64,000 nt of DNA from Candidatus Kerfeldbacteria bacterium (GTDB lineage Bacteria > Patescibacteriota > Patescibacteriia > SBBC01 > CAIJZX01). Position numbers and translations under genes: made by a program. The stretch is from assembly GCA_903825245.1 (NCBI GenBank), contig CAIJZX010000014.1:1655-65654 (forward strand). Reading direction: 5' to 3'. Shown piece after piece: positions 1,800 to 37,730 of this stretch (positions are counted from its first letter, which is position 1; each line of letters opens with the position of its first letter). Below the pieces are notes generated by a model. It saw only the letters and a program-made list of their open reading frames with translations, had not been told where the DNA came from and ran no database searches.

Positions 1800-1986
1800 A
1801 CTGGTGAAGAAAAAATTGGAAACAAAAGACGCCGCCGAGTATACACCCGATGTCAAGACTGGTCAATGGGTAACCCTCGGCCGACACACGACACACAAAA
1901 TTCGCCAAGAAAACGGCAGATTGTGCTACACTTCACATATGGATCAGCATCGTAGCTATCAGCTCTGGATAAAGGAGCAAGAAACA

Positions 1987-3351
1987 ATGAAAGAGCTCAA
2001 AGCGGCGCGCCCCGAGCTCTTTGAATATGCCGGTGCTTTCACTCATCACGATATTCTCCAATTCATCGGCATTACAAGTATTCCGCCGAATCTGCCCGAC
2101 GGCTACATTCGTTTTCGTCCGGAAGATTTTATCGTTGAAGAAATTGATCCCCAACAGCACGTCCACACGATAGATCTATCGAGTACGACTCCTGTCCAGC
2201 AGGAAGACCAACGCACGCTGTTCTGTGACATGATAAAAATCGGTATTGCCACCCCAGCCGCCTTAGATCGAGTAGCGAATGCGTTTCATCTGGAACCACG
2301 ATTTATTGGTAGTGCTGGGTTAAAAGATGCCGGAGCGATCACCTGCCAACGCATCAGTATCCGCGGTGTCACCATCGAACAGGCGCAAGCAACGGCAATT
2401 GAAAGCATTGTTCTAAAAAATTTCTCCTATGGATCCGGCGCAATCGCTCCCGGCCAACTCGGCGGGAATAGATTTACTCTAACGATCCGAACCGCGTCAC
2501 CCTACAACCAACAACTCCTTGATGAGCAAGTTCGCGAGCTCTCGAAGGGTGTCATGAATTTCTACGGCACCCAACGATTCGGCCATCGTTTTCTCGCCCA
2601 TCATTTCGGTCGCCTACTTTTCCAGGGACATTATGAAACCGTCGTTTCTGATTTTCTCACCTCAACAAACGCTACCGAGCGACGATTTCGATCGGAGATT
2701 CGTGGCCGAGTAAAAGCCTGTTACGGCCAATGGGACGAGGCGGAAAAAATATTCGCCGAATTACCGTATACCTTTCAAAATGAGCTTCGTGCTGTGCGAT
2801 TTCTCAAAGACCATCCGACTGATTGGATCGGGGCAATGATGGCAATTCAAGATCAAACACGAATGTGGATTTATTCATATACGAGTTGGTTAACAAACAT
2901 GTTACTTTCCACATACGCCCTGAAGAAGCAACCGCCGCCAGCGACAATTCCAATTCCTATGAGTCCGGTGGCTACCGATATGGAACCATATCGTCAGTGG
3001 CTTGAACAAGATACTATCCCGAATGATTTTCTCCAGAAACTTCGTCCGTTCGCATTTCTCCGTCCAGGATCGCGCCAACTGCAAAGCGTTATCGTTCCAA
3101 ATTTCCATACGGCCATAGCACACGACCTCGGCGCTTTGTTATCGTTTGATTTACGTCCAGGCGCATATGCCACCACGGTATTAATCAATCTTTTTACGCT
3201 CCACTCAGGACAACCAGCGCCGTCGTGGGTAAAAGATTTACCGATTGACGCACCGAAAATCCTCGGTACTGGGTCGGTCGATGAACTTCGCACGACGTAC
3301 GAAAAGTTTTTTATGAAGAAAACTGTTTCTGAGGTTGAGCTAGAAGCATAA
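1987..3351 (+). CDS. truD: TruD/Pus7-family tRNA pseudouridine synthase (the longest ORF starts at 1804; the ATG at 1987 is preferred)
   Basis: Motifs GLKDAGAITCQ (the TruD catalytic-Asp motif G-x-K-D-x-x-A-x-T) and FYGTQRFG (the NYFGxQRFG signature). The start at 1804 would sit only 5 nt from the divergent uvrA start, whereas the ATG at 1987 is preceded by AAGGAG 9 nt upstream. Confidence 0.6.
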   Translation: MKELKAARPELFEYAGAFTHHDILQFIGITSIPPNLPDGYIRFRPEDFIVEEIDPQQHVHTIDLSSTTPVQQEDQRTLFCDMIKIGIATPAALDRVANAFHLEPRFIGSAGLKDAGAITCQRISIRGVTIEQAQATAIESIVLKNFSYGSGAIAPGQLGGNRFTLTIRTASPYNQQLLDEQVRELSKGVMNFYGTQRFGHRFLAHHFGRLLFQGHYETVVSDFLTSTNATERRFRSEIRGRVKACYGQWDEAEKIFAELPYTFQNELRAVRFLKDHPTDWIGAMMAIQDQTRMWIYSYTSWLTNMLLSTYALKKQPPPATIPIPMSPVATDMEPYRQWLEQDTIPNDFLQKLRPFAFLRPGSRQLQSVIVPNFHTAIAHDLGALLSFDLRPGAYATTVLINLFTLHSGQPAPSWVKDLPIDAPKILGTGSVDELRTTYEKFFMKKTVSEVELEA

Positions 3352-3408
3352 ATGAAAAAGAGCCAGGTGCTTGCGCAGAGCTGGCTCTCGGAAAAGGACG
3401 AACTGCTA

Positions 3409-3975
3409 CTAGGCGTTGGTCGAGACCGGGGTCTCGACGAACTCCATCTCCAGGGTCTCGGTGCCGTCGGGCACGAGCTTCATCCGGCCCGACAGGTTGA
3501 CCGTGACGTTCGGCACGTCTTCGGGACGACGGGTGCGCATGTTCTGCCACACGGTCACGCCACCGAAGCAGGCGTTGAAGAACTCGCGACCGAGCATGAT
3601 CGACTCGTCGGTCAGGAGCGGACGACGTTCGCCGCCCTTGACCATGATCATCTCGGTGACCATGCGCTGCTGCCCCGGCTTGCCGGGCTTGGCTTCGGAC
3701 CGCTTGTGGACCGCGACGATGACCCAGCCCTGCTGTTCGAGCTTCTCGACGAAGCCGACGAGCGACAGGCGCTCGTCCTCGACGACGGGCTTGCCCGTGT
3801 CCAGAACGCCGTAGCGGATGTCGCCGACCTTGACGCCGACGATCTCCGCCTGCTTGGCAATCTCCATCGGCGACGGCATCGAACGCGGGTCGAACTCGTG
3901 CAGACCTTCGGGGTTGTAACCGTATGCCTTGAGACGCATGACCTGCACGGCATCGAAAATCTTGACCGGGTTCAT
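3409..3975 (-). CDS. Hypothetical 188-aa protein in a GC-rich islet (~62 % GC against ~48-50 % in the flanks)
   Basis: A clean ORF whose ATG (3973-3975) is preceded by a perfect AAGGAGG 5 nt upstream, which is atypical for this genome. The overlapping + ORF 3352..4062 is a low-complexity antisense artefact. No family could be recognised. Confidence 0.6.
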   Translation of the reverse strand: MNPVKIFDAVQVMRLKAYGYNPEGLHEFDPRSMPSPMEIAKQAEIVGVKVGDIRYGVLDTGKPVVEDERLSLVGFVEKLEQQGWVIVAVHKRSEAKPGKPGQQRMVTEMIMVKGGERRPLLTDESIMLGREFFNACFGGVTVWQNMRTRRPEDVPNVTVNLSGRMKLVPDGTETLEMEFVETPVSTNA

Positions 3976-4147
3976 CGAAGCCTCCTTCGTAGAGGTGTGC
4001 TACGTGGCACCGACAATCAACTGTCGGCGTTGCTGCGGGAAAAAACCCTAGAAATGTTTTGATGAGCTACCAATTGCTCGACCGAGCAGAATATCACGGC
4101 CATGCCAAAAAGTCAAGACCCATGGCAGAGCATTCCGCTAATCTTAG

Positions 4148-4251
4148 CCCCGTTAGAGGTATTTTGATGTTGTTTTTCATCAATTTCCTGCTTTTTTCAT
4201 ACAAAATATTACTTTCGTCTTGCATCATAATTCTCGTCACCTCTAACGGGG
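4148..4251. repeat. 13-bp inverted repeat (CCCCGTTAGAGGT / ACCTCTAACGGGG) flanking a 78-bp AT-rich spacer that contains the nested hairpin TTGATG...CATCAA
   Basis: Read directly from the sequence at 4148-4160 and 4239-4251. It lies in the 325-bp divergent intergenic region between the islet gene and uvrC. Confidence 0.5.
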
Positions 4252-4299
4252 TTAGCCATCAAATTTTCGTAACCCCAGACATGTTATACTCTACAAATC

Positions 4300-6111
4300 A
4301 TGGCCGATAATCTCAAAATTGCGTTTAGCCTACCGAAAAAACCCGGCGTCTATCTCTACCACAACGACGAGGACGTTGTGATCTATGTCGGCAAAGCGAT
4401 CAACCTCCGATCGCGGGTTTCGTCATACTTCCGAAAATCGGCCAACCTCCCGCTGGCGAAGCAACTGATGGTCGAACAAATCACCCGCATCGAACACATT
4501 ATTGTTCGTTCGGAAACTGAGGCGCTCCTTCTCGAATCGACGTTAATAAAAAAATATCGTCCGAAATATAATGTTCTGCTCAAGGACGATAAGTTTTTTC
4601 AATACATCAAGATTCACCTCAAGGATCGTTTTCCACAAGTCGAAACCGTGCGCAAAGTCACGATCGACGGTAGTCGCTATTTCGGTCCGTATACCTCCGG
4701 ACTTGCCGTTCGACAAACGATGCGCTTACTGAAACGTTTGTTCCCCTATAAAAGTTGTAATAATGACATAAGCGTTCCCTGTTTTGATTACCAGCTCGGT
4801 CGCTGTCTCGGCCATGACGTTGATCCCAGCAACGAACAGCGGTACCGCGAGGTGATAAAAAAACTCATTACCTTTCTCGAGGGCAACACCGGCACCGTGC
4901 TGACGGAATTGAAAAAAGATATGAAGGTTGCGGCGGCGCGACGTGATTTTGAGAGCGCGGCGCTGTATCGCGATCGCCTCCACGCCTTGCGACACATTAT
5001 CGAACAGCAGACGGTGATCACGCCGCGCCGCGATTCGTTTGATGTTCTCGCCCTCGCCAGGCGCGACGACCTTGCGGCAGTGAATTTATTTCAGGTACGC
5101 CAAGGCAAACTCGTGCAACGCGACCAGTTTATGCTCCAGCACGTCCGCGAACAAAGTGACAGCGATGTTCTGGTGGCGTTCATCGAACAGTACTACAGTC
5201 AATCGACGGTTCATCCGCGGCTCATTATTACACCAGTAACGTTGCCAACCGACAGCGGCAACGGCTTGCAACTCAACATCGTTCGCGCTCAGCGCGGATT
5301 AAAGAAAAAATTAGTCAGCATGGGTACGGAAAACGCCGAAGATTATTTGCGGCGCGAACAGGAACGGTGGATGACGGAAGAATCGAAAGCAAAACTCGGA
5401 CTTGAGGAATTAGCGCGCGCGTTGCGATTAGATGAACCGCCGAAAAGGATTGAAATGTACGATATTTCGCATTTCCAGAGTACCAACGTCGTCGGTTCGA
5501 TGGTGGTGTTCGAAAACGGCCTACCAAAAAAATCTGATTACCGAAAATTCACTATTCGCGACACCACGATTCCTGACGATCAACACCGATTAGCCGAGGT
5601 GGTACGACGAAGATTTAGCCACCACACTCATAATGAAGATGAATCGGCCCCCTCCTCAGCGAGGAGGGGTGTAGGGGTGGTCAACGACGCATGGCCCACG
5701 CCCGACCTTCTCCTCCTCGACGGCGGCAAAGGCCAACTCTCTGTCGTCACGAAGAATGTGCCGGGATTACTGCAACATATTCGCGTCGCCGCATTAGCTA
5801 AGGAAAATGAAGAGCTCTTTGTGCCCGGAAAATCATCGCCGATTCGCCTACCGGAAGGATCACAGGAGCTTTTTCTCATCCAACGGATTCGCGATGAAGC
5901 CCATCGATTTGCTATCGGCTTCTATCGGAAAAAACATCGTCGCGAAACAACGAAATCAATTCTCGATGAAATCCCCGGCCTCGGTGCGAAGCAACGACAG
6001 GCTCTCCTCAAAACATTCGGTACGCTCGATGGTATTCGCACGGCTGATGAAGAGCAGATTGCAGAAATTGTCGGAGGTCGATTGGCCAAAACGATTCTAG
6101 CGAGAATATAA
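4300..6111 (+). CDS. uvrC: Excinuclease ABC subunit C
   Basis: N-terminal GIY-YIG motifs (VYLYHNDEDVVIYVGKAINLRSRV), the conserved WPTPDLLLLDGGKGQL motif and a C-terminal HhH region. An extended -10 (TGtTATACT, 4282-4290) ends 9 nt before the ATG, which suggests a leaderless mRNA. Confidence 0.92.
   Translation: MADNLKIAFSLPKKPGVYLYHNDEDVVIYVGKAINLRSRVSSYFRKSANLPLAKQLMVEQITRIEHIIVRSETEALLLESTLIKKYRPKYNVLLKDDKFFQYIKIHLKDRFPQVETVRKVTIDGSRYFGPYTSGLAVRQTMRLLKRLFPYKSCNNDISVPCFDYQLGRCLGHDVDPSNEQRYREVIKKLITFLEGNTGTVLTELKKDMKVAAARRDFESAALYRDRLHALRHIIEQQTVITPRRDSFDVLALARRDDLAAVNLFQVRQGKLVQRDQFMLQHVREQSDSDVLVAFIEQYYSQSTVHPRLIITPVTLPTDSGNGLQLNIVRAQRGLKKKLVSMGTENAEDYLRREQERWMTEESKAKLGLEELARALRLDEPPKRIEMYDISHFQSTNVVGSMVVFENGLPKKSDYRKFTIRDTTIPDDQHRLAEVVRRRFSHHTHNEDESAPSSARRGVGVVNDAWPTPDLLLLDGGKGQLSVVTKNVPGLLQHIRVAALAKENEELFVPGKSSPIRLPEGSQELFLIQRIRDEAHRFAIGFYRKKHRRETTKSILDEIPGLGAKQRQALLKTFGTLDGIRTADEEQIAEIVGGRLAKTILARI
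5646..5680. repeat. GA-rich palindromic element (GGCCCCCTCCTC-AGC-GAGGAGGGGT-GTAGGGG) inserted in-frame inside uvrC
   Basis: Perfect 9-bp stem CCCCTCCTC/GAGGAGGGG at 5649-5669. The same ~38-nt element recurs in intergenic DNA at 27294-27335 and, in extended form, at 32708-32803. Within uvrC it encodes ...ESAPSSARRGVGVV... just before the conserved WPTPDLLLLDGG motif. Confidence 0.7.
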
Positions 6112-6679: not shown

Positions 6680-8480
6680 TCTACAACCCCCGCAGCAGCG
6701 GTGGTTCACGCGTCTCCTCAAACGACGGCAACCGAAGACCGCTTCGGCTACATTAGCGCACAATGATGACCGCGCCTTGGTATTAAGTTTGTCGCCAAAA
6801 CGTATTCCGTCACGAAAGCAGCTTCAGTATTTACCGCGGGTATTAACCACACGAGACCGTAACTGGATTCGTTCCTGCGTCATACTGATTATTGCTAGTA
6901 TCCTGACGCTAATCGGTCACACAATATACAAACACGTGGTTATTATTCCTGCCGATGGCGGAACGCTGAATGAAGGCATCGTCGGTACACCACAGTATAT
7001 CAATCCGGTTCTCGCCCGCCCATATACAGCTGATGCGGAATTAACACATCTCGTGTTTCGTGGATTGATGAAAGTGAATGACCAGCTAGCCGTCGTGCCA
7101 GACTTGGTTTCATCCTTAACGGTCAGCGCTGACGGCAAAGTTTACACCGCCATCCTCCGTTCAAATATGCAATGGTCAGACGGAACAGCGCTTACCGCTG
7201 ACGATGTGCAATATACCTACGAGACCATTGCCGATGCTTCCTACCAAAGTCCATTACTGAGTGTCTTTAAAAATGTAAAAGTCACCACGACCGACAAACA
7301 CACGGTCGTCTTCACGTTACCGGCTCCATTATCATCATTTCCGGCATCATTAACACTTGGCATTTTGCCGAAACAAGATTGGCAGGATCAAAGTGCCCAA
7401 GCCTTTCCCCTCGCCGAACTGAACGTTAAGCCGATTGGTAACGGCCCGTACAAATTCCAAAGCGTCACTAAGGACCGCAATGGCAATATTAAGGCCTATA
7501 CCTTCACACGTAACAAATATTACAACGGTGCAAAACCGCACATTGCCAAAATTACTGTTAAGGTTTATTCCGATGAAGCAAGCGCGGTCGATGCCTTAAA
7601 ATCAGATGCCGTTGATTCACTCGGTGGAATTGATTCAACATCGATAGCGGCAGTAAAAAAGTATCGCCAAATTTCCACCTTCGACCTCTCACAATTAACC
7701 GGCGTCTTCTTTAACCAAAAAACCAGCATCATCCTCAAAGCCGCAGAGGTGCGGCAAGCGTTAGCCATGACCGTCGACCGCGCGGCGCTCATCAAAACCT
7801 CCGACAACAATGTTGGCGCGCCGGCGAACGGGCCGCTTCTCTCGGGTCAACCTGGATTCAGTACGCTGGCGCGACATATCGACCTCAATGTGGCACAAGC
7901 CACAGCGCTTCTCGATCAAAATGGTTGGAAGGTCGGCACCACCGGCATTCGCCAAAAAGGCGGCCGTGATCTCGCGTTTACCTTAACCACCGTCAACGAC
8001 CCAAGTTACGTCGCCATGGCACAGGCGTTGGCCAAGTCGTGGCTCGCTATCGGTGCGAAAGTCGATGTTAAAACGGTCGATGTCGATCGCATCATGAAAG
8101 ACGCAATCCAACCCCGCCAATACGACGCCTTGCTGTACGGCGAACTAACCGACGCCGCGGCCGACATGTATCCGCTGTGGGATTCATCGCAGCAGCAAGA
8201 TCCAGGATTTGCTTTAGCGATCGCGACGCTGAAAAATGCTGATACCGATCTCGAAAAAGCCCGCGCCACCACCGACCCGAATGCCTATGCGGCCGACCTC
8301 CTCGATTTCCAAAATATTTTCGCCGACAGCGTCCCCGCTATTATCATCAGCCAAACGCAATACGTCTACGCCCACGAAAAAAATCTCCGCGGGTTCACCA
8401 CCGATCGGTTGGTAGCGCCGATGAACCGCTTTGACGATATTTCGAGTTGGTACACGAACACCACCTGGAGCTGGAAATAG
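6666..8480 (+). CDS. Extracellular solute-binding protein, family 5 (OppA/DppA-like), membrane-anchored
   Basis: An N-terminal TM anchor (WIRSCVILIIASILTLIG) followed by a ~520-aa domain with the characteristic SBP_bac_5 order (QYINPVLARPYTADAELTHLVFRGLMK...NGPYKFQS...). It overlaps the secG stop by 14 nt. Confidence 0.75.
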   Translation: MPTDNLQPPQQRWFTRLLKRRQPKTASATLAHNDDRALVLSLSPKRIPSRKQLQYLPRVLTTRDRNWIRSCVILIIASILTLIGHTIYKHVVIIPADGGTLNEGIVGTPQYINPVLARPYTADAELTHLVFRGLMKVNDQLAVVPDLVSSLTVSADGKVYTAILRSNMQWSDGTALTADDVQYTYETIADASYQSPLLSVFKNVKVTTTDKHTVVFTLPAPLSSFPASLTLGILPKQDWQDQSAQAFPLAELNVKPIGNGPYKFQSVTKDRNGNIKAYTFTRNKYYNGAKPHIAKITVKVYSDEASAVDALKSDAVDSLGGIDSTSIAAVKKYRQISTFDLSQLTGVFFNQKTSIILKAAEVRQALAMTVDRAALIKTSDNNVGAPANGPLLSGQPGFSTLARHIDLNVAQATALLDQNGWKVGTTGIRQKGGRDLAFTLTTVNDPSYVAMAQALAKSWLAIGAKVDVKTVDVDRIMKDAIQPRQYDALLYGELTDAAADMYPLWDSSQQQDPGFALAIATLKNADTDLEKARATTDPNAYAADLLDFQNIFADSVPAIIISQTQYVYAHEKNLRGFTTDRLVAPMNRFDDISSWYTNTTWSWK

Positions 8481-34137: not shown

Positions 34138-34308
34138 ATGAGGATGGGCACGTTCAGCACGATCGAGCGAATTATGGAGGACAACGGACTACCGGTTCCA
34201 AGCGGGCGAGGAAATGAGAAGCTCAACGAAATCGCAAGAATCGTCGAGACTCACGAAATGCCTGAGGATGTCCGACAGCGTCTTCGTAACTTGCTCGCCC
34301 TTCGCTGA
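34138..34308 (+). CDS. Island ORF D: 56-aa hydrophilic protein (MRMGTFSTIERIMEDNGLPVPSGRGNEKLNEIARIVETHEMPEDVRQRLRNLLALR)
   Basis: GGAGG 5 nt before the ATG. It is absent from the ORF track only because it is under 60 aa. It ends just before a shortened leader (CAAGTTTTCGTTCAC). Confidence 0.4.
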   Translation: MRMGTFSTIERIMEDNGLPVPSGRGNEKLNEIARIVETHEMPEDVRQRLRNLLALR

Positions 34309-34366
34309 CTCAACGACAAGCAACGCACAAGTTTTCGTTCACACTTCTCGCTACGGAGGTTACACC

Positions 34367-34615
34367 ATGTCGTCCAATCCGATGACGTCGGAGCAGAAGG
34401 TTACGCAACTCCTGGTAGCGCTCGTGTTGACCATTCTTGGTCTGCCGATCGCCGCGCTTGGTGGTTACGGCATCTACTTTGCCTTCACCAATACCGGTGC
34501 CGATCCCGGCCTCGGATCAGCGGCCATTCTGGTCTTCTGCGTCGGCATCGGCGCTATCGGCATCGCCATCAAGCTGACCAACGATGCGCGTCGGGCGAAG
34601 ACGAGTCCGATCTAG
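34367..34615 (+). CDS. Island ORF E: 82-aa two-TM, Gly-rich membrane peptide
   Basis: GGAGG 7 nt before the ATG. MSSNPMTSEQKVTQLLVALVLTILGLPIAALGGYGIYFAFTNTGADPGLGSAAILVFCVGIGAIGIAIKLTNDARRAKTSPI. Confidence 0.5.
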   Translation: MSSNPMTSEQKVTQLLVALVLTILGLPIAALGGYGIYFAFTNTGADPGLGSAAILVFCVGIGAIGIAIKLTNDARRAKTSPI

Positions 34616-34649
34616 ATGCACCTTGAGATAAGGGGGACCCGCGAGTTCC

Positions 34650-34704
34650 CTTCTCACTCGACTTGAGAACTAATCCAATAGTTGTCCGGTCAAGTGAGAA
34701 AACC
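34650..34704 (+). repeat. Type-2 leader hairpin, copy 1 (TCTCACTCGAC ...loop... GTCAAGTGAGAAAACC)
   Basis: The stem CACTCGAC/GTCAAGTG contains one G-U pair and is followed by GAGAAAA. The motif family recurs upstream of ORFs at 35251, 36142 and 36738. Confidence 0.65.
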
Positions 34705-34745
34705 AAAGTAACATCGTTCCGTCACAATCAAATCTGGAGGATACA

Positions 34746-35105
34746 ATGACCAATCTGGCTTTGGCTGTCACTGTTATTGGCGCCGCCGCTGTCATCGTGG
34801 TTGTCTGGCGCTTCATGCGTCACAAGTTCCGCAACGACGAGATCGCTGTTCCGGACGAACCCACGCCGCCGCAACCGGTCTATAACGATAGGCCCGTGAT
34901 CGAGGCTGAAGAAATCGGTCACGGCGTTTACGAGATCGGGTTCTACGGACGCTTCGATGGGGTCCTGATGGACGTCTTTCCGGAATCCCTCGCCGCCTTC
35001 GTCAAGCAGCACCCCGAGTTGCGGATCATCAGCGTCTGCACCGGACGTGAATCCAGTTACAATGGCTTCACTTCCAGTATGGTTGTGTTGACCGAACTGC
35101 GTTAA
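34746..35105 (+). CDS. Island ORF F: 119-aa protein with an N-terminal TM anchor and a small soluble domain
   Basis: GGAGGA 4 nt before the ATG. MTNLALAVTVIGAAAVIVVVWRFMRHKF... followed by a ~85-aa domain. Confidence 0.55.
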   Translation: MTNLALAVTVIGAAAVIVVVWRFMRHKFRNDEIAVPDEPTPPQPVYNDRPVIEAEEIGHGVYEIGFYGRFDGVLMDVFPESLAAFVKQHPELRIISVCTGRESSYNGFTSSMVVLTELR

Positions 35106-35165
35106 GCACCTTCAACTCGAGCCACCCGGCTCATTGAGAGGATGGATAGCCACATCGTCCTCCTT

Positions 35166-35208
35166 TCACTCGAGTATTGCAAGCAATTGAAATATTCAAG
35201 CGAAACAC
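35166..35208 (+). repeat. Type-2 leader hairpin, copy 2 (a diverged copy: TCACTCGAG...TTCAAGCGAAACAC)
   Basis: It shares TCACTCGAG and the CAAG(T/C)GA(G/A)AAAC tail. A further partial CAACTCGAG...CTCATTGAG lies at 35111-35140. Confidence 0.5.
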
Positions 35209-35250
35209 AGAAAATAGAAACTGCTCTTCACAACACTAGGAGGTTCAAGG

Positions 35251-35484
35251 ATGGACATTCCTGCGTTTCACAGCGTTACGGCTCACAAAGAACATGAATG
35301 TTGTGAATGCCACGAGCGGATTCTTCCGAAGGAGAGGTGCTGGATTCAGTACTGGCCGGATGCTCGTCAGCGTCGGTGGAAGAATGTTTTTACCTGCTCT
35401 CACTGTCGTCCGCAACACGAAGTACCGGCACAGCCTACGCCGGCACCTCAGCCGATCAAGTCTCAGCAGTTGTTGCTTCTGTAG
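35251..35484 (+). CDS. Island ORF G: Cys-rich 77-aa protein (HECCECHERILPKERCW...CSHCRPQH), a zinc-ribbon-like product
   Basis: TAGGAGG 7 nt before the ATG. Two CxxC-like clusters lie about 30 residues apart, followed by a Pro/Gln-rich tail. Confidence 0.55.
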   Translation: MDIPAFHSVTAHKEHECCECHERILPKERCWIQYWPDARQRRWKNVFTCSHCRPQHEVPAQPTPAPQPIKSQQLLLL

Positions 35485-35508
35485 CCCACCTCAACAAGGA
35501 GCTCCAAA

Positions 35509-35967
35509 ATGGAATTCGTCGGGAAGAAGTTCGTGTTGTGGCCATACATGCCGGACATGCCCAGCGTGCAGTATCGCGACCAGCATGGCATTCTCCATTG
35601 GGGTCGACGCATCGAGAGAGAAATCGTCGTCACAATCGAAAATGAATCGACAAATGCGTCAGGACACGGCACCGACCTCGTCGCTCGTGACAAGGACGGC
35701 ATGCTGTATCAGTCGACCTGGGACGAGAGCAATTCCCGTCCCTACCGCGTCTGGTGGTACGTCGAGGGCGGCCGTGTGATCCTGCTCACGAATGCGATCA
35801 ATCTCTACAACGAACGTCCGACCGCATTCATCCGTCCCGATGGCACCCGCGCTGTCCCGGCAATCGCCACGGTCTGCGCCAAACATGACGAGGTATGCTT
35901 GTCGAATGGCGAATGCCCCATGTGCATGATGGAGAAGCATCGCGCCAAGCTGCAAGGTTCCGTCTAG
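35509..35967 (+). CDS. Island ORF H: hypothetical 152-aa protein with a C-terminal Cys cluster (CAKHDEVCLSNGECPMC)
   Basis: AAGGAG 7 nt before the ATG. It lies 24 nt after ORF G and is probably co-transcribed with it. The competing ORFs at 35294..35779 and 35307..35645 lack an RBS. Confidence 0.55.
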   Translation: MEFVGKKFVLWPYMPDMPSVQYRDQHGILHWGRRIEREIVVTIENESTNASGHGTDLVARDKDGMLYQSTWDESNSRPYRVWWYVEGGRVILLTNAINLYNERPTAFIRPDGTRAVPAIATVCAKHDEVCLSNGECPMCMMEKHRAKLQGSV

Positions 35968-36037
35968 ACCTCCTAGCTGTTCTCGCCTGCCGCGCAATTC
36001 TACGTTCACTTCGGTGGATATGGATTGCGCGGCGGGC

Positions 36038-36084
36038 TCTCACTCGAGCGTTTCACAACCGTGGAACGTTCAAGTGAGAAAACG
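36038..36084 (+). repeat. Type-2 leader hairpin, copy 3 (CTCTCACTCGAGCGTT...AACGTTCAAGTGAGAAAACG)
   Basis: A 14-nt stem with one mismatch and one G-U pair, followed by GTCACAAT as in copy 1. Confidence 0.65.
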
Positions 36085-36141
36085 AAAAGAAATACTGTTC
36101 TGTCACAATTCATCGCTTTACGCGAAGAGAGGAGCAGCATA

Positions 36142-36570
36142 ATGAGTTTGCTTGCGGCTTGTTTGTTGATCGCGGCCGTAGTGTTCCTGGTGGTAGCCAT
36201 TTTTCAGGATCGGGCGCGGTTTCGTGAGTTGGAAAAAAGGAGGAATCTGGAGCGGTGCGAATCACGGCACGCGCAAAACTTCCTCGAGCTGGAGATCAAG
36301 ATCCTCCGATATGTTCATGGCCACAAGCGCCTGCCCAAGAACATGGACCTTGTGCGCGGCATGAATATGAACCCGGATTATACCAACCCCTTCAGCGGAA
36401 ATCCGGCCAATGTCAATGACGTGACCGGGCTGGAGGAGATGCGAATCATCCTGCCCCATGATCTGACGTTCGAGATCTTGGCTCCGGAAGGTCCCGGATC
36501 GGAACGATGTGTCATCGCCCTGAATGATGCAAACGGCCAAGTGATGTGTCGGAGGACCATTTACGCGTAA
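36142..36570 (+). CDS. Island ORF: 142-aa protein with an N-terminal signal/anchor (MSLLAACLLIAAVVFLVVAIF) and a soluble domain
   Basis: GAGGAG 8 nt before the ATG. The longest ORF (36025) would begin inside the leader hairpin. Confidence 0.5.
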   Translation: MSLLAACLLIAAVVFLVVAIFQDRARFRELEKRRNLERCESRHAQNFLELEIKILRYVHGHKRLPKNMDLVRGMNMNPDYTNPFSGNPANVNDVTGLEEMRIILPHDLTFEILAPEGPGSERCVIALNDANGQVMCRRTIYA

Positions 36571-36636
36571 ACCGAGATCACAACCAACTGGTTTTCGAGA
36601 GATTTTCCCTGGCTCACGCCAAAAATAATCTCTCAG

Positions 36637-36697
36637 TTTCACTCGAGCGTTTCAGCGCCGCCTGCTCGCGGAACTGGAGCGCTCAAGTGAGAAAAGA
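36637..36697 (+). repeat. Type-2 leader hairpin, copy 4 (TTTCACTCGAGCG ...33-nt loop... CGCTCAAGTGAGAAAAG)
   Basis: The stem CACTCGAGCG/CGCTCAAGTG has one G-U pair, and the GAGAAAA tail is the same as in the other copies. Confidence 0.65.
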
Positions 36698-36737
36698 AAA
36701 TTGTAAAAACCGTTCATTCCAACTGAAGGAGAGTGCT

Positions 36738-37421
36738 ATGTCCACTTGTGCGCAGGAGGAATTCCTAGCCACACACGTCACATGTCGACCATATCGAGTG
36801 TCTGATCGGCGGGAAATTCGTCAGCTGATGTGTAATACCGCAATTATGGGCAATCCGATCGACCTGCAATGCACCGATCGCGAGCTCATTGCCGATTTGT
36901 TCACCCGGTACTACACCGACGTCACGCCGGGATGGATCTGGGTGCTCGAATTTCGCGGACGCCTCGTCGGTTACCTGATGGGTTGTCCGGACACGAAGCT
37001 GTTCCAGAAGTATATGGACGACGTCTACCCCAGTATCCTGCTCGGCGTCCTGCGTCGCGGATCGCTCTTCCGTTCCGGTTCAGCCGGCTTTCTGTGGCGG
37101 ACAATCGGAGACATTCTCGGAAAGGTACTTCGTCGCGAACCGCTCGAGTATTACAATCCGGCGTTTCCGGCTCACGCTCACCTGAATGTTTTGCCCGAAG
37201 GTCGTTCATCTACGTACCAGCTCGCTGCCCGATTTCTGAAGCAGCTCAGACAGCATAATGTGCCTGGGATCATGGTTGAAATCTGGGCCGAGAATGCCCA
37301 CATGGCCACCCTGCTGGAACACCATCGTTTTCAGAAGGTCCATTCCACCACCATGCCCGGCATGCGTCAGTCGAACGGTTATCCGTACCATGTCGCCACC
37401 TACGTCCGATCGCTGTTGTAG
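36738..37421 (+). CDS. Island ORF: GNAT-family N-acetyltransferase-like protein (227 aa)
   Basis: AAGGAG 7 nt before the ATG. A GNAT-like central and C-terminal region (GRLVGYLMG...NVLPEGRSSTYQLAARFLKQLRQHNVPGIMVEIWAENAHMATLLEHHRFQKV). The assignment is by motif resemblance only. Confidence 0.45.
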   Translation: MSTCAQEEFLATHVTCRPYRVSDRREIRQLMCNTAIMGNPIDLQCTDRELIADLFTRYYTDVTPGWIWVLEFRGRLVGYLMGCPDTKLFQKYMDDVYPSILLGVLRRGSLFRSGSAGFLWRTIGDILGKVLRREPLEYYNPAFPAHAHLNVLPEGRSSTYQLAARFLKQLRQHNVPGIMVEIWAENAHMATLLEHHRFQKVHSTTMPGMRQSNGYPYHVATYVRSLL

Positions 37422-37448
37422 CCTCACCCCTCACACAAGGAGCCGCAC

Positions 37449-37730
37449 GTGATCCAGTGGATGCTGTTGCTGGTAATTCTGGCTATGTTCTTCTCGCTCA
37501 TCAACAGCCGCGACAAAGGGTTGGACCAGATCATTTCCGGCTGGGTCATCTGGACTGGCTGGCTGTGGATTCTCATTCCCGGCGCCATGTTCGGCAACGA
37601 GATTCTCCGTTCGATCGGTGCACCGAATATCCGGATCTTCCAGTCCGGGTCGTGGCAGCCGCTCGGTCCGATGGTTCTCGGCGCGATCCTGCTCTTTTCC
37701 TGGCATCGCCGCCAGGCCAAACACAACTAA
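37449..37730 (+). CDS. Island ORF: 93-aa multi-TM membrane protein (GTG start)
   Basis: AAGGAG 6 nt before the GTG. Three hydrophobic helices (MIQWMLLLVILAMFFSLI..., WVIWTGWLWILIPGAMF, LGPMVLGAILLFSW). It is followed immediately by a strong terminator. Confidence 0.55.
   Translation: MIQWMLLLVILAMFFSLINSRDKGLDQIISGWVIWTGWLWILIPGAMFGNEILRSIGAPNIRIFQSGSWQPLGPMVLGAILLFSWHRRQAKHN

What the first reader, a model, noticed from the sequence alone, without database searches (positions are those of the whole stretch)
3352..3990. A 0.6-kb GC-rich islet holding a single SD-bearing gene of unknown function
GC rises to about 62 % exactly over the 188-aa - strand ORF (3409..3975) and returns to about 45 % on both sides, where the intergenic DNA is AT-rich. 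The gene has a perfect AAGGAGG 5 nt before its ATG, as do the other suspected foreign genes in the window. It is inserted between truD and uvrC. The + strand 236-aa ORF across it is a typical high-GC antisense artefact. The product (MNPVKIFDAVQVMRLKAYGYNPEGLHEF...) has no motif I recognise.
Basis: seen in the sequence. Interest (0 to 1): 0.5.

Follow-up and report, generated by a model that had tools for sequence, protein, structure and literature searches.

The report
Native CPR gene locked in GC-rich codons
The GC-rich "islet" is real but is not foreign DNA: it is an old orphan gene that sits beside truD in all 12 lineages examined of a group of tiny Patescibacteria and keeps almost only G/C-ending codons in 11 of the 12, in host genomes from 34 % to about 60 % GC, which points to long-lasting selection on its synonymous sites.

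Summary
Observation confirmed: the 188-aa minus-strand ORF 3409..3975 has 63.8 % GC (GC3 0.89) in a ~50 % GC genome, a perfect AAGGAGG, and no detectable family. The interpretation (a foreign gene inserted between truD and uvrC) is not supported. Homologues at 16-67 % identity lie convergent to truD in all 12 Patescibacteria lineages examined, and between truD and uvrC in at least seven. No relative was found in another phylum, or in any virus or plasmid collection searched. Eleven of the 12 copies are GC-rich: GC3 is 0.85-0.98 in the ten with an intact reading frame, including 0.86 where neighbouring genes have 0.20-0.25. Flanking genes are synonymously saturated between window and L006, yet X keeps GC3 near 0.9. 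Its silent sites do turn over, mostly by G<->C changes. The bias is codon-specific (GGT/CGT tolerated, GGG avoided) and partly parallels rpoB/rpoC/recA. X also has a near-consensus promoter, the window's strongest SD and an intrinsic terminator. Best reading: a native, probably heavily expressed gene under long-term selection for G/C-ending codons and a GC-rich transcript. Protein function and fold remain unknown. One AT-rich copy (L020) shows the trait is dispensable.

The parts
3409..3975 (-). Coding sequence of 'X', a 188-aa (21 kDa, pI 5.8) soluble orphan protein. Conserved motifs: G-x-x-D-(T/S/D)-G at residues 56-61, W143-x-N145, T158.
   Evidence: ORF and translation. GC1/2/3 = 0.65/0.38/0.89. 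Nine-lineage alignment with invariant G56, D59, G61, G83, W143, N145 and T158. pI and MW. No hit in Pfam, NCBIfam, PHROGs, PADLOC or PDB sequences.
3981..3987 (-). Shine-Dalgarno sequence AAGGAGG, 5 nt before the ATG.
   Evidence: Read directly from the sequence. Strongest SD of the 47 window ORFs, 27 of which have none. Strong SDs also precede X in L006, L016, L008, L013, L017, L018, L019 and L012.
3976..4081 (-). 5' leader of about 105 nt, inferred from the promoter position. It starts with a GCTCGGTC-like motif and contains a small hairpin (CCGACA..TGTCGG) and a CACGTAGCAC box shared with L006.
   Evidence: Upstream comparison across lineages. Leaders are 55-176 nt in the lineages where they were extracted; in L019-L021 the promoter-like box lies 195-293 nt before the ATG. 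Sequence is poorly conserved beyond the closest relatives. No Rfam match. The transcription start is inferred, not mapped.
4088..4116 (-). Promoter of X: TTGACT - 17 nt - (TG)aTATTCT, a near-consensus sigma-70 type with an extended -10.
   Evidence: Consensus scan. The promoter plus start motif occurs once in the window. TTGAC(A/T)-17-TAxxxT boxes precede X in the window, L006, L016, L008, L013, L017, L018, L012, L019, L020 and L021.
3353..3387 (-). Intrinsic terminator of X: hairpin GAGCCAG-N14-CTGGCTC (3360-3387) followed on the minus strand by TTTTTCATTT. It lies in the 57-nt spacer before the truD stop codon.
   Evidence: Sequence. The stem motif occurs once in the 64-kb window and exactly once in each of the 13 loci that have it, in the X-truD spacer in the loci examined. 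A 33-nt stretch is identical to L008. The simple terminator scan missed it because its loop limit is 8 nt.
3352..4062 (+). Antisense 236-aa ORF. It is a non-coding by-product of GC3-rich codon use, not a gene.
   Evidence: dN is about equal to dS. GC pattern 0.84/0.37/0.64. The frame is stop-free only where TTA/CTA/TCA are absent, and has 11 stops in L020. Gene callers mis-annotated the equivalent ORF in L015 and L021.
1984..3351 (+). truD (tRNA pseudouridine-13 synthase, ~470-aa CPR form), the constant convergent neighbour of X. The listed ORF starts at 1804 (GTG); homologues suggest a start near 1984.
   Evidence: PF01142 homologues. X lies convergent and immediately downstream of truD in all 12 lineages.

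Best explanation
X is a native, vertically inherited orphan gene of a Patescibacteria (CPR) clade that includes Kerfeldbacteria- and Parcubacteria-labelled MAGs. It is not an insertion. It is a self-contained transcription unit (near-consensus promoter, long leader, perfect SD, 188-aa ORF, intrinsic terminator) held in a conserved convergent pairing with truD.

Its GC-richness is an actively maintained state of its synonymous sites, and in the 34 % GC host of its UTRs as well. Silent sites keep mutating, but only G- or C-ending codons (plus GGT and CGT) persist.

My inference is that this reflects expression-linked selection with two layers. The first is ordinary translational optimisation toward codons read by G34 or C34 tRNAs. 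The second is a further preference for a GC-rich transcript, plausibly for mRNA stability or yield. On this reading X is made in large amounts.

Shown: nativeness, synteny, codon statistics and the sequence signals. Inferred: high expression, the RNA-level benefit and everything about the protein's role. The protein is a soluble ~21-kDa alpha/beta protein with conserved G-x-x-D-T-G and W-x-N motifs and an unknown activity. A functional link to TruD is possible but untested.
For: (1) Position is conserved. X homologues at 16-67 % identity lie convergent to truD in 12 lineages: window, L006, L016, L008, L013, L014, L017, L018, L019, L012, L020 and L021. Family membership is supported by HMM E-values of 6e-12 to 7e-7 for the weakest members.

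(2) The family is confined to Patescibacteria. An exhaustive HMMER search of 1.84 billion representatives gave four weak hits, three of them plausible relatives. Of those three, two are labelled Patescibacteria MAGs and the third lies in the same truD context in an unnamed MAG. Nothing was found in phages, plasmids or viral contigs.

(3) X divergence tracks TruD divergence (Mantel r = 0.35, P = 0.035), and no pair has X clearly closer than TruD; two higher values are judged artefacts of short end-gap-free alignments.

(4) Flanks are synonymously saturated between window and L006 (pS 0.78-0.83). X still holds GC3 of 0.89/0.94/0.97 in the three close lineages and 0.85-0.98 elsewhere. That includes 0.86 where the neighbours, among them tsf and rpsB, have 0.20-0.25.

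(5) Silent sites are not frozen. Codon identity at conserved residues is 70.6 %, against 63.8 % expected at saturation (z = 1.7). In the close trio 26-29 % of silent third positions differ, and 43-85 % of those changes are G<->C. In truD and uvrC the G<->C share is 12-14 %.

(6) The bias is codon-specific. Nc lies below the GC3-expected curve in all nine genes. T-ending codons concentrate in GGT/CGT (46/235 against 34/705, p = 1e-10), and GGG is avoided.

(7) In the window genome X deviates in the same direction as rpoB, rpoC, recA, ssb and rnj (Spearman 0.46, p = 2e-4).

(8) Expression signals: near-consensus promoters in 11 lineages, the strongest SD in the window and an intrinsic terminator.

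(9) In L012 the UTRs have 0.56 GC, against 0.24 just upstream of the promoter and 0.34 for other intergenic DNA.

(10) Selection for higher genic G+C acting independently of species codon usage has been shown experimentally in Caulobacter (PMC4478552).
Against: - No expression data exist, so high expression is inferred from sequence signals only.
- In the 34 % GC host, classic high-expression genes (tsf, rpsB, rpmE) show no G/C-ending preference. Host-wide translational selection therefore cannot be the whole cause there.
- X prefers GAG, CAG, CTG and CCC, which the window's housekeeping genes do not.
- L020 keeps a perfect TTGACA-17-TATAAT promoter but has GC3 of only 0.335. A strong promoter does not force GC-rich coding, and the two-state pattern (0.86 against 0.34 at similar host GC) sits awkwardly with a simple selection-mutation balance.
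- The mRNA is no more structured than its composition predicts (z = -2.0 and -1.1, from only 20 shuffles).
- Below about 50 % TruD identity, X identities are saturated near 25 %, so co-divergence cannot be tested at depth.
Confidence: 0.55

Rival explanations
1. Recent horizontal acquisition: a gene from a high-GC donor, for example an actinobacterium or its phage, inserted between truD and uvrC and not yet ameliorated.
For: Atypical composition with sharp borders. The codon dialect (GTC, ACC, TCG, GGC/GGT, CGC/CGT, AAG) resembles that of highly expressed genes in high-GC bacteria; this comparison is from my own knowledge and was not tested. The gene is an orphan.
Against: The same gene is at the same place in 12 lineages whose TruD proteins are only 32-71 % identical. 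Flanking silent sites are saturated between window and L006, yet both copies stay at GC3 0.89-0.94. There is no homologue outside Patescibacteria among 1.84 billion representatives, and none in phages, plasmids or viral contigs. There are no flanking direct repeats, integrase or tRNA.
Confidence: 0.03
2. Recurrent replacement: X is a cassette that moves among CPR lineages and repeatedly lands beside truD, by site-specific or homologous recombination. Its composition would then reflect a GC-rich donor pool and not each host.
For: The whole transcription unit, including UTRs, is GC-elevated in the AT-rich host, with a step at the promoter and terminator. The side away from truD varies: uvrC, tsf, a NUDIX gene and others. 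GC3 is two-state at similar host GC, L012 0.86 against L020 0.34. The terminator hairpin stem is conserved, with 33 nt identical between window and L008. Saccharibacteria, which are CPR bacteria, are naturally competent (PMC10187176, abstract seen).
Against: No pair of lineages has X clearly closer than TruD; two higher values are judged alignment artefacts. P0006 (L012) has no close relative among 5.8 billion clusters. There are no recombinase genes or repeats at the borders. The promoter just outside the GC-rich block is itself conserved. The codon-specific GGT/CGT/GGG pattern and its agreement with host housekeeping genes suggest local selection.
Confidence: 0.12
3. GC-biased gene conversion or another local mutational bias at a recombination hotspot drives every free site in this segment toward G/C, without any benefit to expression.
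For: GC1 and GC2 are also raised relative to neighbours in the AT-rich host (0.54/0.39 against 0.41-0.47/0.29-0.31), and the UTRs are GC-elevated. Biased gene conversion is a recognised candidate for bacterial GC content (discussed in PMC4478552).
Against: Pure W-to-S drive does not explain the preference for GGT over GGG and the tolerance of CGT, or Nc lying below the GC3 curve. The borders coincide with the transcript and not with an arbitrary tract. An effect of 0.2 to 0.86 in GC3 confined to about 700 bp and stable across a clade would be far larger than reported bacterial gBGC effects (my own knowledge).
Confidence: 0.1
4. Antisense-regulatory arrangement (excludon or noncontiguous operon). 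X is embedded on the opposite strand within the co-directional truD-uvrC-secG array, and its GC-rich mRNA also acts as an antisense partner of read-through transcripts. That role would explain the conserved convergent pairing.
For: The opposite-strand gene between same-strand neighbours is conserved. The terminator is canonical only for X's strand, so truD read-through into X is possible. The architecture is documented in S. aureus and elsewhere (PMC7154746).
Against: uvrC has its own -10-like box about 11 nt before its ATG in the window, and similar TATACT boxes lie close to the start of the upstream gene in L016, L008 and L018, so co-transcription across X is not required. In L012, L014 and L020 the gene beyond X is not uvrC. 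Nothing in this model predicts the GGT/CGT-type codon choice. It could coexist with the best explanation.
Confidence: 0.08
5. The region is really a structured non-coding RNA or an overlapping antisense gene, and the 188-aa ORF is incidental.
For: GC-rich islands in AT-rich genomes are typical of structural RNA genes (my own knowledge). A stop-free antisense frame is present in most lineages.
Against: There is strong three-base periodicity (0.65/0.38/0.89) in every lineage. The ORF length and protein motifs are conserved at about 25 % identity. An SD is present. There is no Rfam hit. Folding z-scores are unremarkable. The antisense frame has dN about equal to dS and is broken 11 times in L020.
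Confidence: 0.02

Closest known systems
Highly expressed bacterial genes with translationally selected codon bias (for example tuf, rpl/rps, major outer-membrane or S-layer genes)
   Same: Strong promoter and SD. Nc below the compositional expectation. Preference for NNC codons, GGT/GGC and CGT/CGC, with avoidance of GGG, AGR and NTA. The direction of bias is shared with rpoB/rpoC/recA in the same genome.
   Different: The bias is far stronger than in any other gene seen here. It includes G-ending choices that the host's housekeeping genes do not favour. It is kept almost unchanged in hosts from 34 % to about 60 % GC, including one where tsf and rpsB show no such bias. Expression has not been measured.
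[quoted passage not shown]
   Same: A benefit of G/C at synonymous sites that is not explained by the species' codon-usage pattern. Here the UTRs are GC-elevated as well.
   Different: That effect was described as genome-wide and weak. Here it would be concentrated on one gene and strong enough to hold GC3 at 0.86 against a background of 0.2. This is an analogy, not a demonstrated mechanism.
Horizontally acquired genomic islet (compositional outlier)
   Same: Sharp GC step, orphan product and its own expression signals.
   Different: The gene is syntenic in all 12 lineages, no donor exists, there are no mobility genes or repeats, and the composition persists past synonymous saturation of the flanks.
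Noncontiguous operon / excludon (S. aureus menE-menC-MW1733-ytkD; PMC7154746)
   Same: A protein-coding gene on the opposite strand between co-directional neighbours, in a conserved convergent arrangement.
   Different: No evidence of co-transcription across X. uvrC appears to have its own promoter. The partner beyond X varies between lineages.

Membership tests
Horizontally acquired genomic island/islet | Base composition and codon usage atypical of the host genome | tested here: met
   GC 0.638 against 0.499; GC3 0.894 against a mean of 0.545, sd 0.084.
Horizontally acquired genomic island/islet | Patchy distribution: absent from the same site in related genomes | tested here: not met
   Present convergent to truD in all 12 lineages examined. 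L007 has a rearranged uvrC neighbourhood, and its truD context was not seen.
Horizontally acquired genomic island/islet | Identifiable donor lineage or closer homologues outside the host clade | tested here: not met
   Three plausible relatives among 1.84 billion representatives: two are labelled Patescibacteria MAGs and the third lies in the same truD context in an unnamed MAG. None in phages, plasmids or viral contigs.
Horizontally acquired genomic island/islet | Mobility signatures at the borders (integrase/transposase, tRNA target, direct repeats) | tested here: not met
   No flanking direct repeats of 12 nt or more that bracket the gene. No tRNA within 4.9 kb. The neighbours are truD and uvrC.
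Highly expressed gene under translational codon selection | Codon bias stronger than composition alone predicts | tested here: met
   Nc 27.6-41.5, below the GC3s-expected curve in 9 of 9 genes. GGT/CGT enrichment p = 1e-10 and GGG avoidance.
Highly expressed gene under translational codon selection | Bias in the same direction as reference highly expressed genes of the same genome | tested here: inconclusive
   Window genome: Spearman 0.46, p = 2e-4 against rpoB/rpoC/recA/ssb/rnj, but discordant for GAG, CAG, CTG and CCC. L012: tsf, rpsB and rpmE have GC3 0.20-0.27 against 0.86 for X.
Highly expressed gene under translational codon selection | Strong transcription and translation initiation signals | tested here: met
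   Near-consensus promoters in 11 lineages. Strongest SD of 47 window ORFs. These are consensus matches, not measurements.
Highly expressed gene under translational codon selection | High measured mRNA or protein abundance | not testable with these tools
   No transcriptome or proteome data are available here.
Retropepsin-like aspartic protease (D-T/S-G active-site motif) | Sequence or profile match to aspartic-protease families | tested here: not met
   The D59-T60-G61 motif is conserved (D-S-G in L019, D-D-G in L018), but none of the nine members matches any aspartic-protease Pfam family at E <= 5.
Retropepsin-like aspartic protease (D-T/S-G active-site motif) | Mainly beta, retropepsin-type fold | tested here: inconclusive
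Noncontiguous operon / excludon | Opposite-strand gene between co-directional genes | tested here: met
   truD(+), X(-), uvrC(+), secG(+) in the window and the same layout in L008, L017, L018 and L019.
Noncontiguous operon / excludon | Flanking genes co-transcribed across the embedded gene, with overlapping transcripts that regulate each other | not testable with these tools
   Needs strand-specific RNA-seq. Indirect evidence against: uvrC has its own -10-like box next to its ATG in the window, with similar boxes in L016, L008 and L018.
Structured non-coding RNA (Rfam families) | Match to a covariance model, or more structure than composition predicts | tested here: not met
   No Rfam match at E <= 1. 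Folding z = -1.96 (sense) and -1.05 (antisense). Codon periodicity indicates a coding region.

The most novel reading that the evidence does not exclude
A single, vertically inherited gene whose whole transcript is held at about 60-69 % GC by selection acting on the nucleic acid itself, not on the protein or on host-matched translation. This would amount to per-gene composition homeostasis, maintained for as long as it took TruD to diverge to about 35 % identity, in hosts from 34 % to about 60 % GC. The benefit could be an unusually nuclease-resistant or long-lived mRNA. It could also be decoding that relies only on G34/C34 tRNAs, so that X can still be translated when U34 tRNAs or their modifications are limiting. 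The constant neighbour is a tRNA-modification enzyme, which makes that second idea worth testing.
Probability: 0.25. Interest if true: 0.75.

Novelty: new variant of a known kind. Interest (0 to 1): 0.55.

Why it matters
**Practical.** Compositional outliers are routinely read as foreign DNA. This case meets the usual composition-based criteria for horizontal transfer, yet it is ancient and native. Annotation pipelines also mis-call its antisense strand, as seen in two public assemblies here.

**Conceptual.** The force that opposes the universal AT mutational bias in bacteria is still debated: selection on GC, codon selection or biased gene conversion. X offers a rare natural experiment. The same gene is held at GC3 of about 0.9 in genomes from 34 % to about 60 % GC, with one lineage (L020) where the constraint has lapsed. 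Recoding experiments and CPR metatranscriptomes could test directly which force is acting.

**Biological.** X is a conserved, probably abundant CPR-specific protein beside truD. It has no known fold or family, which makes it a reasonable target for structural and functional work on microbial dark matter.

Tried and rejected
- **Family and structure searches for the protein.** Pfam, NCBIfam, PHROGs, PADLOC and PDB sequences were searched with the single sequence and with a nine-lineage profile. Nothing significant came back; the best was a PHROG of unknown function at E = 0.16.
- **Reading the low pS (0.33) as a younger islet.** Rejected. Under X's own codon bias, saturation already predicts 64 % identical codons, against 71 % observed.
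- **Riboswitch-like leader.** Leaders differ in length (55-176 nt where extracted) and sequence, and Rfam finds nothing.
- **Excess mRNA or antisense structure.** Not significant.
- **Antisense ORF as a real gene.** Rejected.
- **Viral, plasmid or phage carriage.** None found. One viral scan failed because the nine-lineage alignment was too divergent.
- **Synteny in reference genomes.** The single genome-contig scan returned only one relative, with a rearranged uvrC neighbourhood.
- **Window markers of high expression.** The window's next-highest GC3 genes have no Pfam identity, and the window holds no ribosomal-protein genes.
- **L020 as a natural experiment linking promoter loss to loss of GC3.** Not borne out, because L020 keeps a perfect consensus promoter.
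- **Population variation among L001-L005.** The contigs are essentially identical to the window and carry no signal.
- **Lower GC3 in codons 2-11.** Only marginal: 0.85 against 0.91, p = 0.05.
- **Literature.** Searches found no description of this gene or phenomenon.
Full report
**1.

The minus-strand ORF 3409..3975 encodes 188 aa. GC is 0.63-0.67 in 200-nt windows across 3401-3900 and 0.385-0.53 on either side. Over the ORF it is 0.638, against 0.499 for the rest of the window. No other 600-nt window in the 64 kb exceeds 0.58.

By codon position, GC is 0.65/0.38/0.89. That periodicity marks a real coding frame written in G/C-ending codons. Against 47 window ORFs (GC3 mean 0.545, sd 0.084) the gene lies about 4 sd out.

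AAGGAGG sits 5 nt before the ATG. It is the strongest Shine-Dalgarno sequence among those 47 ORFs, 27 of which have none. The neighbours are truD (PF01142) and uvrC. The same arrangement was assembled independently from several samples, so it is not a chimera.

**2. The protein is an orphan**

Pfam, NCBIfam, PHROGs, PADLOC and PDB sequences give nothing. The word-indexed search of 5.8 billion clusters found only the protein itself and one 67 % relative. An exhaustive HMMER pass over 1.84 billion representatives added three plausible weak relatives with E between 9e-9 and 6e-4. A nine-lineage profile still matches no Pfam family or solved structure.

The alignment shows a soluble protein of about 21 kDa with invariant G56, D59, G61, G83, W143, N145 and T158. 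The D-T-G triplet recalls aspartic proteases, but no profile or fold evidence supports that. I keep it only as a lead.

**3. The gene is native and old, not inserted**

- The 67 % relative (L006) lies between the uvrC 5' end and the truD 3' end, exactly as in the window.
- The distant relatives (25-33 % identity) are also immediately convergent to truD: L008 between uvrC and truD, L012 between tsf and truD, and L013 and L014 likewise.
- X evolves too fast for sequence searches, so I sampled contexts of TruD homologues at 72, 52, 43, 40, 38 and 36 % identity. Every one has a Pfam-less gene of 180-241 aa convergent and just downstream of truD. A profile HMM confirms the weakest copies (E 1e-9 and 6.5e-7).
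- In at least seven lineages the order is truD -> <- X, uvrC ->. In L008, L016, L018 and L019 uvrA lies on the far side of truD, and in L008, L017 and L018 uvrC is followed by secG and an SBP_bac_5 gene.
- Named MAGs are Candidatus Kerfeldbacteria, Parcubacteria or 'Patescibacteria group'.
- Pairwise X identities follow TruD identities where signal remains (Mantel r = 0.35, P = 0.035), and no pair has X clearly closer than TruD; two higher values are judged artefacts of short end-gap-free alignments.
- No relative occurs in phages, plasmids or viral contigs, and no repeats bracket the gene.

**4. The composition is the surprise**

| Locus | X GC3 | truD GC3 | Locus GC excluding X |
|---|---|---|---|
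| window | 0.89 | 0.46 | 0.50 |
| L006 | 0.94 | 0.54 (C-terminal part) | 0.51 |
| L016 | 0.97 | 0.58 | 0.54 |
| L008 | 0.88 | 0.58 | 0.57 |
| L013 | 0.90 | not measured | 0.54 |
| L017 | 0.98 | 0.66 | 0.56 |
| L018 | 0.92 | 0.50 | 0.55 |
| L019 | 0.85 | 0.64 | 0.53 |
| L021 | 0.88 | 0.47 | 0.46 |
| L012 | 0.86 | 0.25 | 0.34 |
| L020 | 0.34 | 0.24 | 0.33 |

Sources. L014 is not tabulated because its X copy is frameshifted in that assembly. Its X region reaches 0.62-0.73 GC in a contig of about 0.6.

In L012 the neighbours use AAG:AAA at 17:113, while X uses 12:1.

Between window and L006 the flanking genes are synonymously saturated (pS 0.78 and 0.83). Any unconstrained site should therefore have drifted to the host's composition.

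X's low pS (0.33) does not mean it is young. Under its own codon bias, saturation predicts 63.8 % identical codons at conserved residues, and 70.6 % are observed (z = 1.7).

The silent sites are turning over but are confined. In the window/L006/L016 trio, 26-29 % of silent third positions differ, and 43-85 % of those differences are G<->C transversions. In truD and uvrC the share is 12-14 %.

L020 is the one exception. A Parcubacteria MAG at 33 % GC has an X homologue at the same position with GC3 of only 0.335. The GC-rich state is therefore not required for the protein.

**5. What kind of force acts**

The bias is not pure GC pressure:
- Nc is below the GC3-expected curve in all nine genes tested.
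- T-ending codons are concentrated in GGT and CGT (46/235 against 34/705 in other four-fold boxes, p = 1e-10).
- GGG is avoided, taking 10 % of its box against 41 % G-ending elsewhere.
- In the window genome, rpoB, rpoC, recA, ssb and rnj deviate from other genes in the same direction as X. They favour TTC, TAC, CAC, ATC, GTC, CTC, GGC, ACC, TCG and CGC, and avoid GGG, AGR and NTA (Spearman 0.46, p = 2e-4).

X also goes beyond those genes, with GAG, CAG, CTG and CCC. In L012 the transcript's UTRs are GC-elevated: 0.56, against 0.24 upstream of the promoter and 0.34 for other intergenic DNA. In that host, tsf, rpsB and rpmE show no G/C-ending preference.

I therefore see two layers: translational optimisation and an additional preference for a GC-rich transcript. 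The second resembles the experimentally shown selection for genic G+C that acts independently of codon usage in Caulobacter (PMC4478552).

**6. Expression signals**

X is a free-standing unit:
- A TTGAC(A/T)-17-TAxxxT promoter, often with an extended TG, precedes it in 11 lineages. In the window this is 4116..4088, TTGACT-17-TATTCT.
- In L012 the annotated ATG lies inside the -10 box. The true start is the ATG at 8067, after GAGGAGG.
- Leaders are long (55-176 nt where extracted; in L019-L021 the promoter lies 195-293 nt before the ATG) and not conserved, and match no Rfam family.
- The hairpin GAGCCAG..CTGGCTC plus a T-run terminates X. It is unique in the window and occurs exactly once in each of the 13 loci that have it.
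- The mRNA is no more structured than its composition predicts.

**7. The antisense ORF**

The 236-aa plus-strand ORF shows no purifying selection. It is stop-free only because TTA, CTA and TCA are unused, and it has 11 stops in L020. Gene callers chose it over X in L015 and L021, and my own longest-ORF caller did the same.

**8. Verdict**

The best explanation is a native, clade-specific and probably heavily expressed gene whose silent sites and transcript are kept GC-rich by long-term selection.

My confidence is about 0.85 that the gene is native and its composition actively maintained. It is 0.55 for the full expression-linked mechanism.

Rivals, in decreasing order of credibility:
- cassette replacement from an unsampled GC-rich CPR pool (0.12);
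- biased gene conversion (0.10);
- an antisense-regulatory role (0.08), which could coexist with the main reading;
- recent HGT (0.03);
- ncRNA or an antisense gene (0.02).

The protein's function is unknown, and its constant pairing with truD is unexplained. The case is a caution for composition-based HGT calls. It is also a natural system for testing what holds GC up against AT-biased mutation.

Noticed in passing
window 4145-4160 / 4239-4254; L013 1369-1473; L008 13669-13769: An element of about 105 nt bounded by 14-nt inverted arms, ACCCCGTTAGAGG(C/T) ... CCTCTAACGGGGT, with an unconserved AT-rich interior. It lies between X's promoter and uvrC in the window. In L013 it abuts X's -35 box in the opposite orientation. 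In L008 it is about 5 kb away near csrA. There is no Rfam match. It could be an operator pair or a MITE-like element.
   Followed up: partly
window 4275-4302 (upstream of uvrC); also L016, L008 and L018 upstream regions: uvrC has a TGtTATACT -10-like box about 11 nt before its ATG and no SD, and similar TATACT boxes lie close to the start of the upstream gene in the three loci. This suggests leaderless or near-leaderless mRNAs. Of 47 window ORFs, 27 have no recognisable SD, which makes X's long leader and perfect SD stand out.
   Followed up: partly
L012 1-973 (-) and 1417-1593 (-): The 34 % GC Patescibacteria MAG (GCA_028699085.1) carries further GC-rich, Pfam-less genes: part of a 686-aa protein with an E/K-rich N-terminus (GC3 0.63) and a 58-aa protein (GC3 0.78). 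X may belong to a small class of GC-rich orphan genes in that genome.
   Followed up: partly
L015 5482-6996 (+); L021 5545-6258 (+); window 3352-4062 (+): Public gene calls annotate the antisense artefact ORF in place of X in two assemblies. In L015 it runs to the contig end as a 505-aa product. A longest-ORF rule makes the same mistake in the window.
   Followed up: yes
window 3356-3388 and L008 8387-8419 (approximate): The X terminator hairpin with its loop (GAGAGCCAGCTCTGCGCAAGCACCTGGCTCTTT) is identical over 33 nt in the window and L008, although the X proteins are only 29 % identical and TruD 52 %. Such conservation is unusual for a terminator and may mark a protein- or RNA-binding site.
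   Followed up: partly
L014 1240-1892: The X copy in this metagenome contig is split across two reading frames, with the switch lying within about 1430-1450. This is either an assembly error or a pseudogene.
   Followed up: no
window 34214-37726: A cluster of Pfam-less ORFs with the next-highest GC3 in the window (0.62-0.81). Some have odd GC1/GC2 patterns that suggest wrong frames. AAGGAGG also occurs at 36237 (+) and 35159 (-).
   Followed up: no
L012 10411-10890 and 12800-13285; 6798-7184: Two IS200/IS605-type Y1 transposase genes flank rpsB and a methyltransferase gene, and a 23S_rRNA_IVP (Avd-like) gene lies between pyrH and tsf, all in the AT-rich MAG near truD-X.
   Followed up: no
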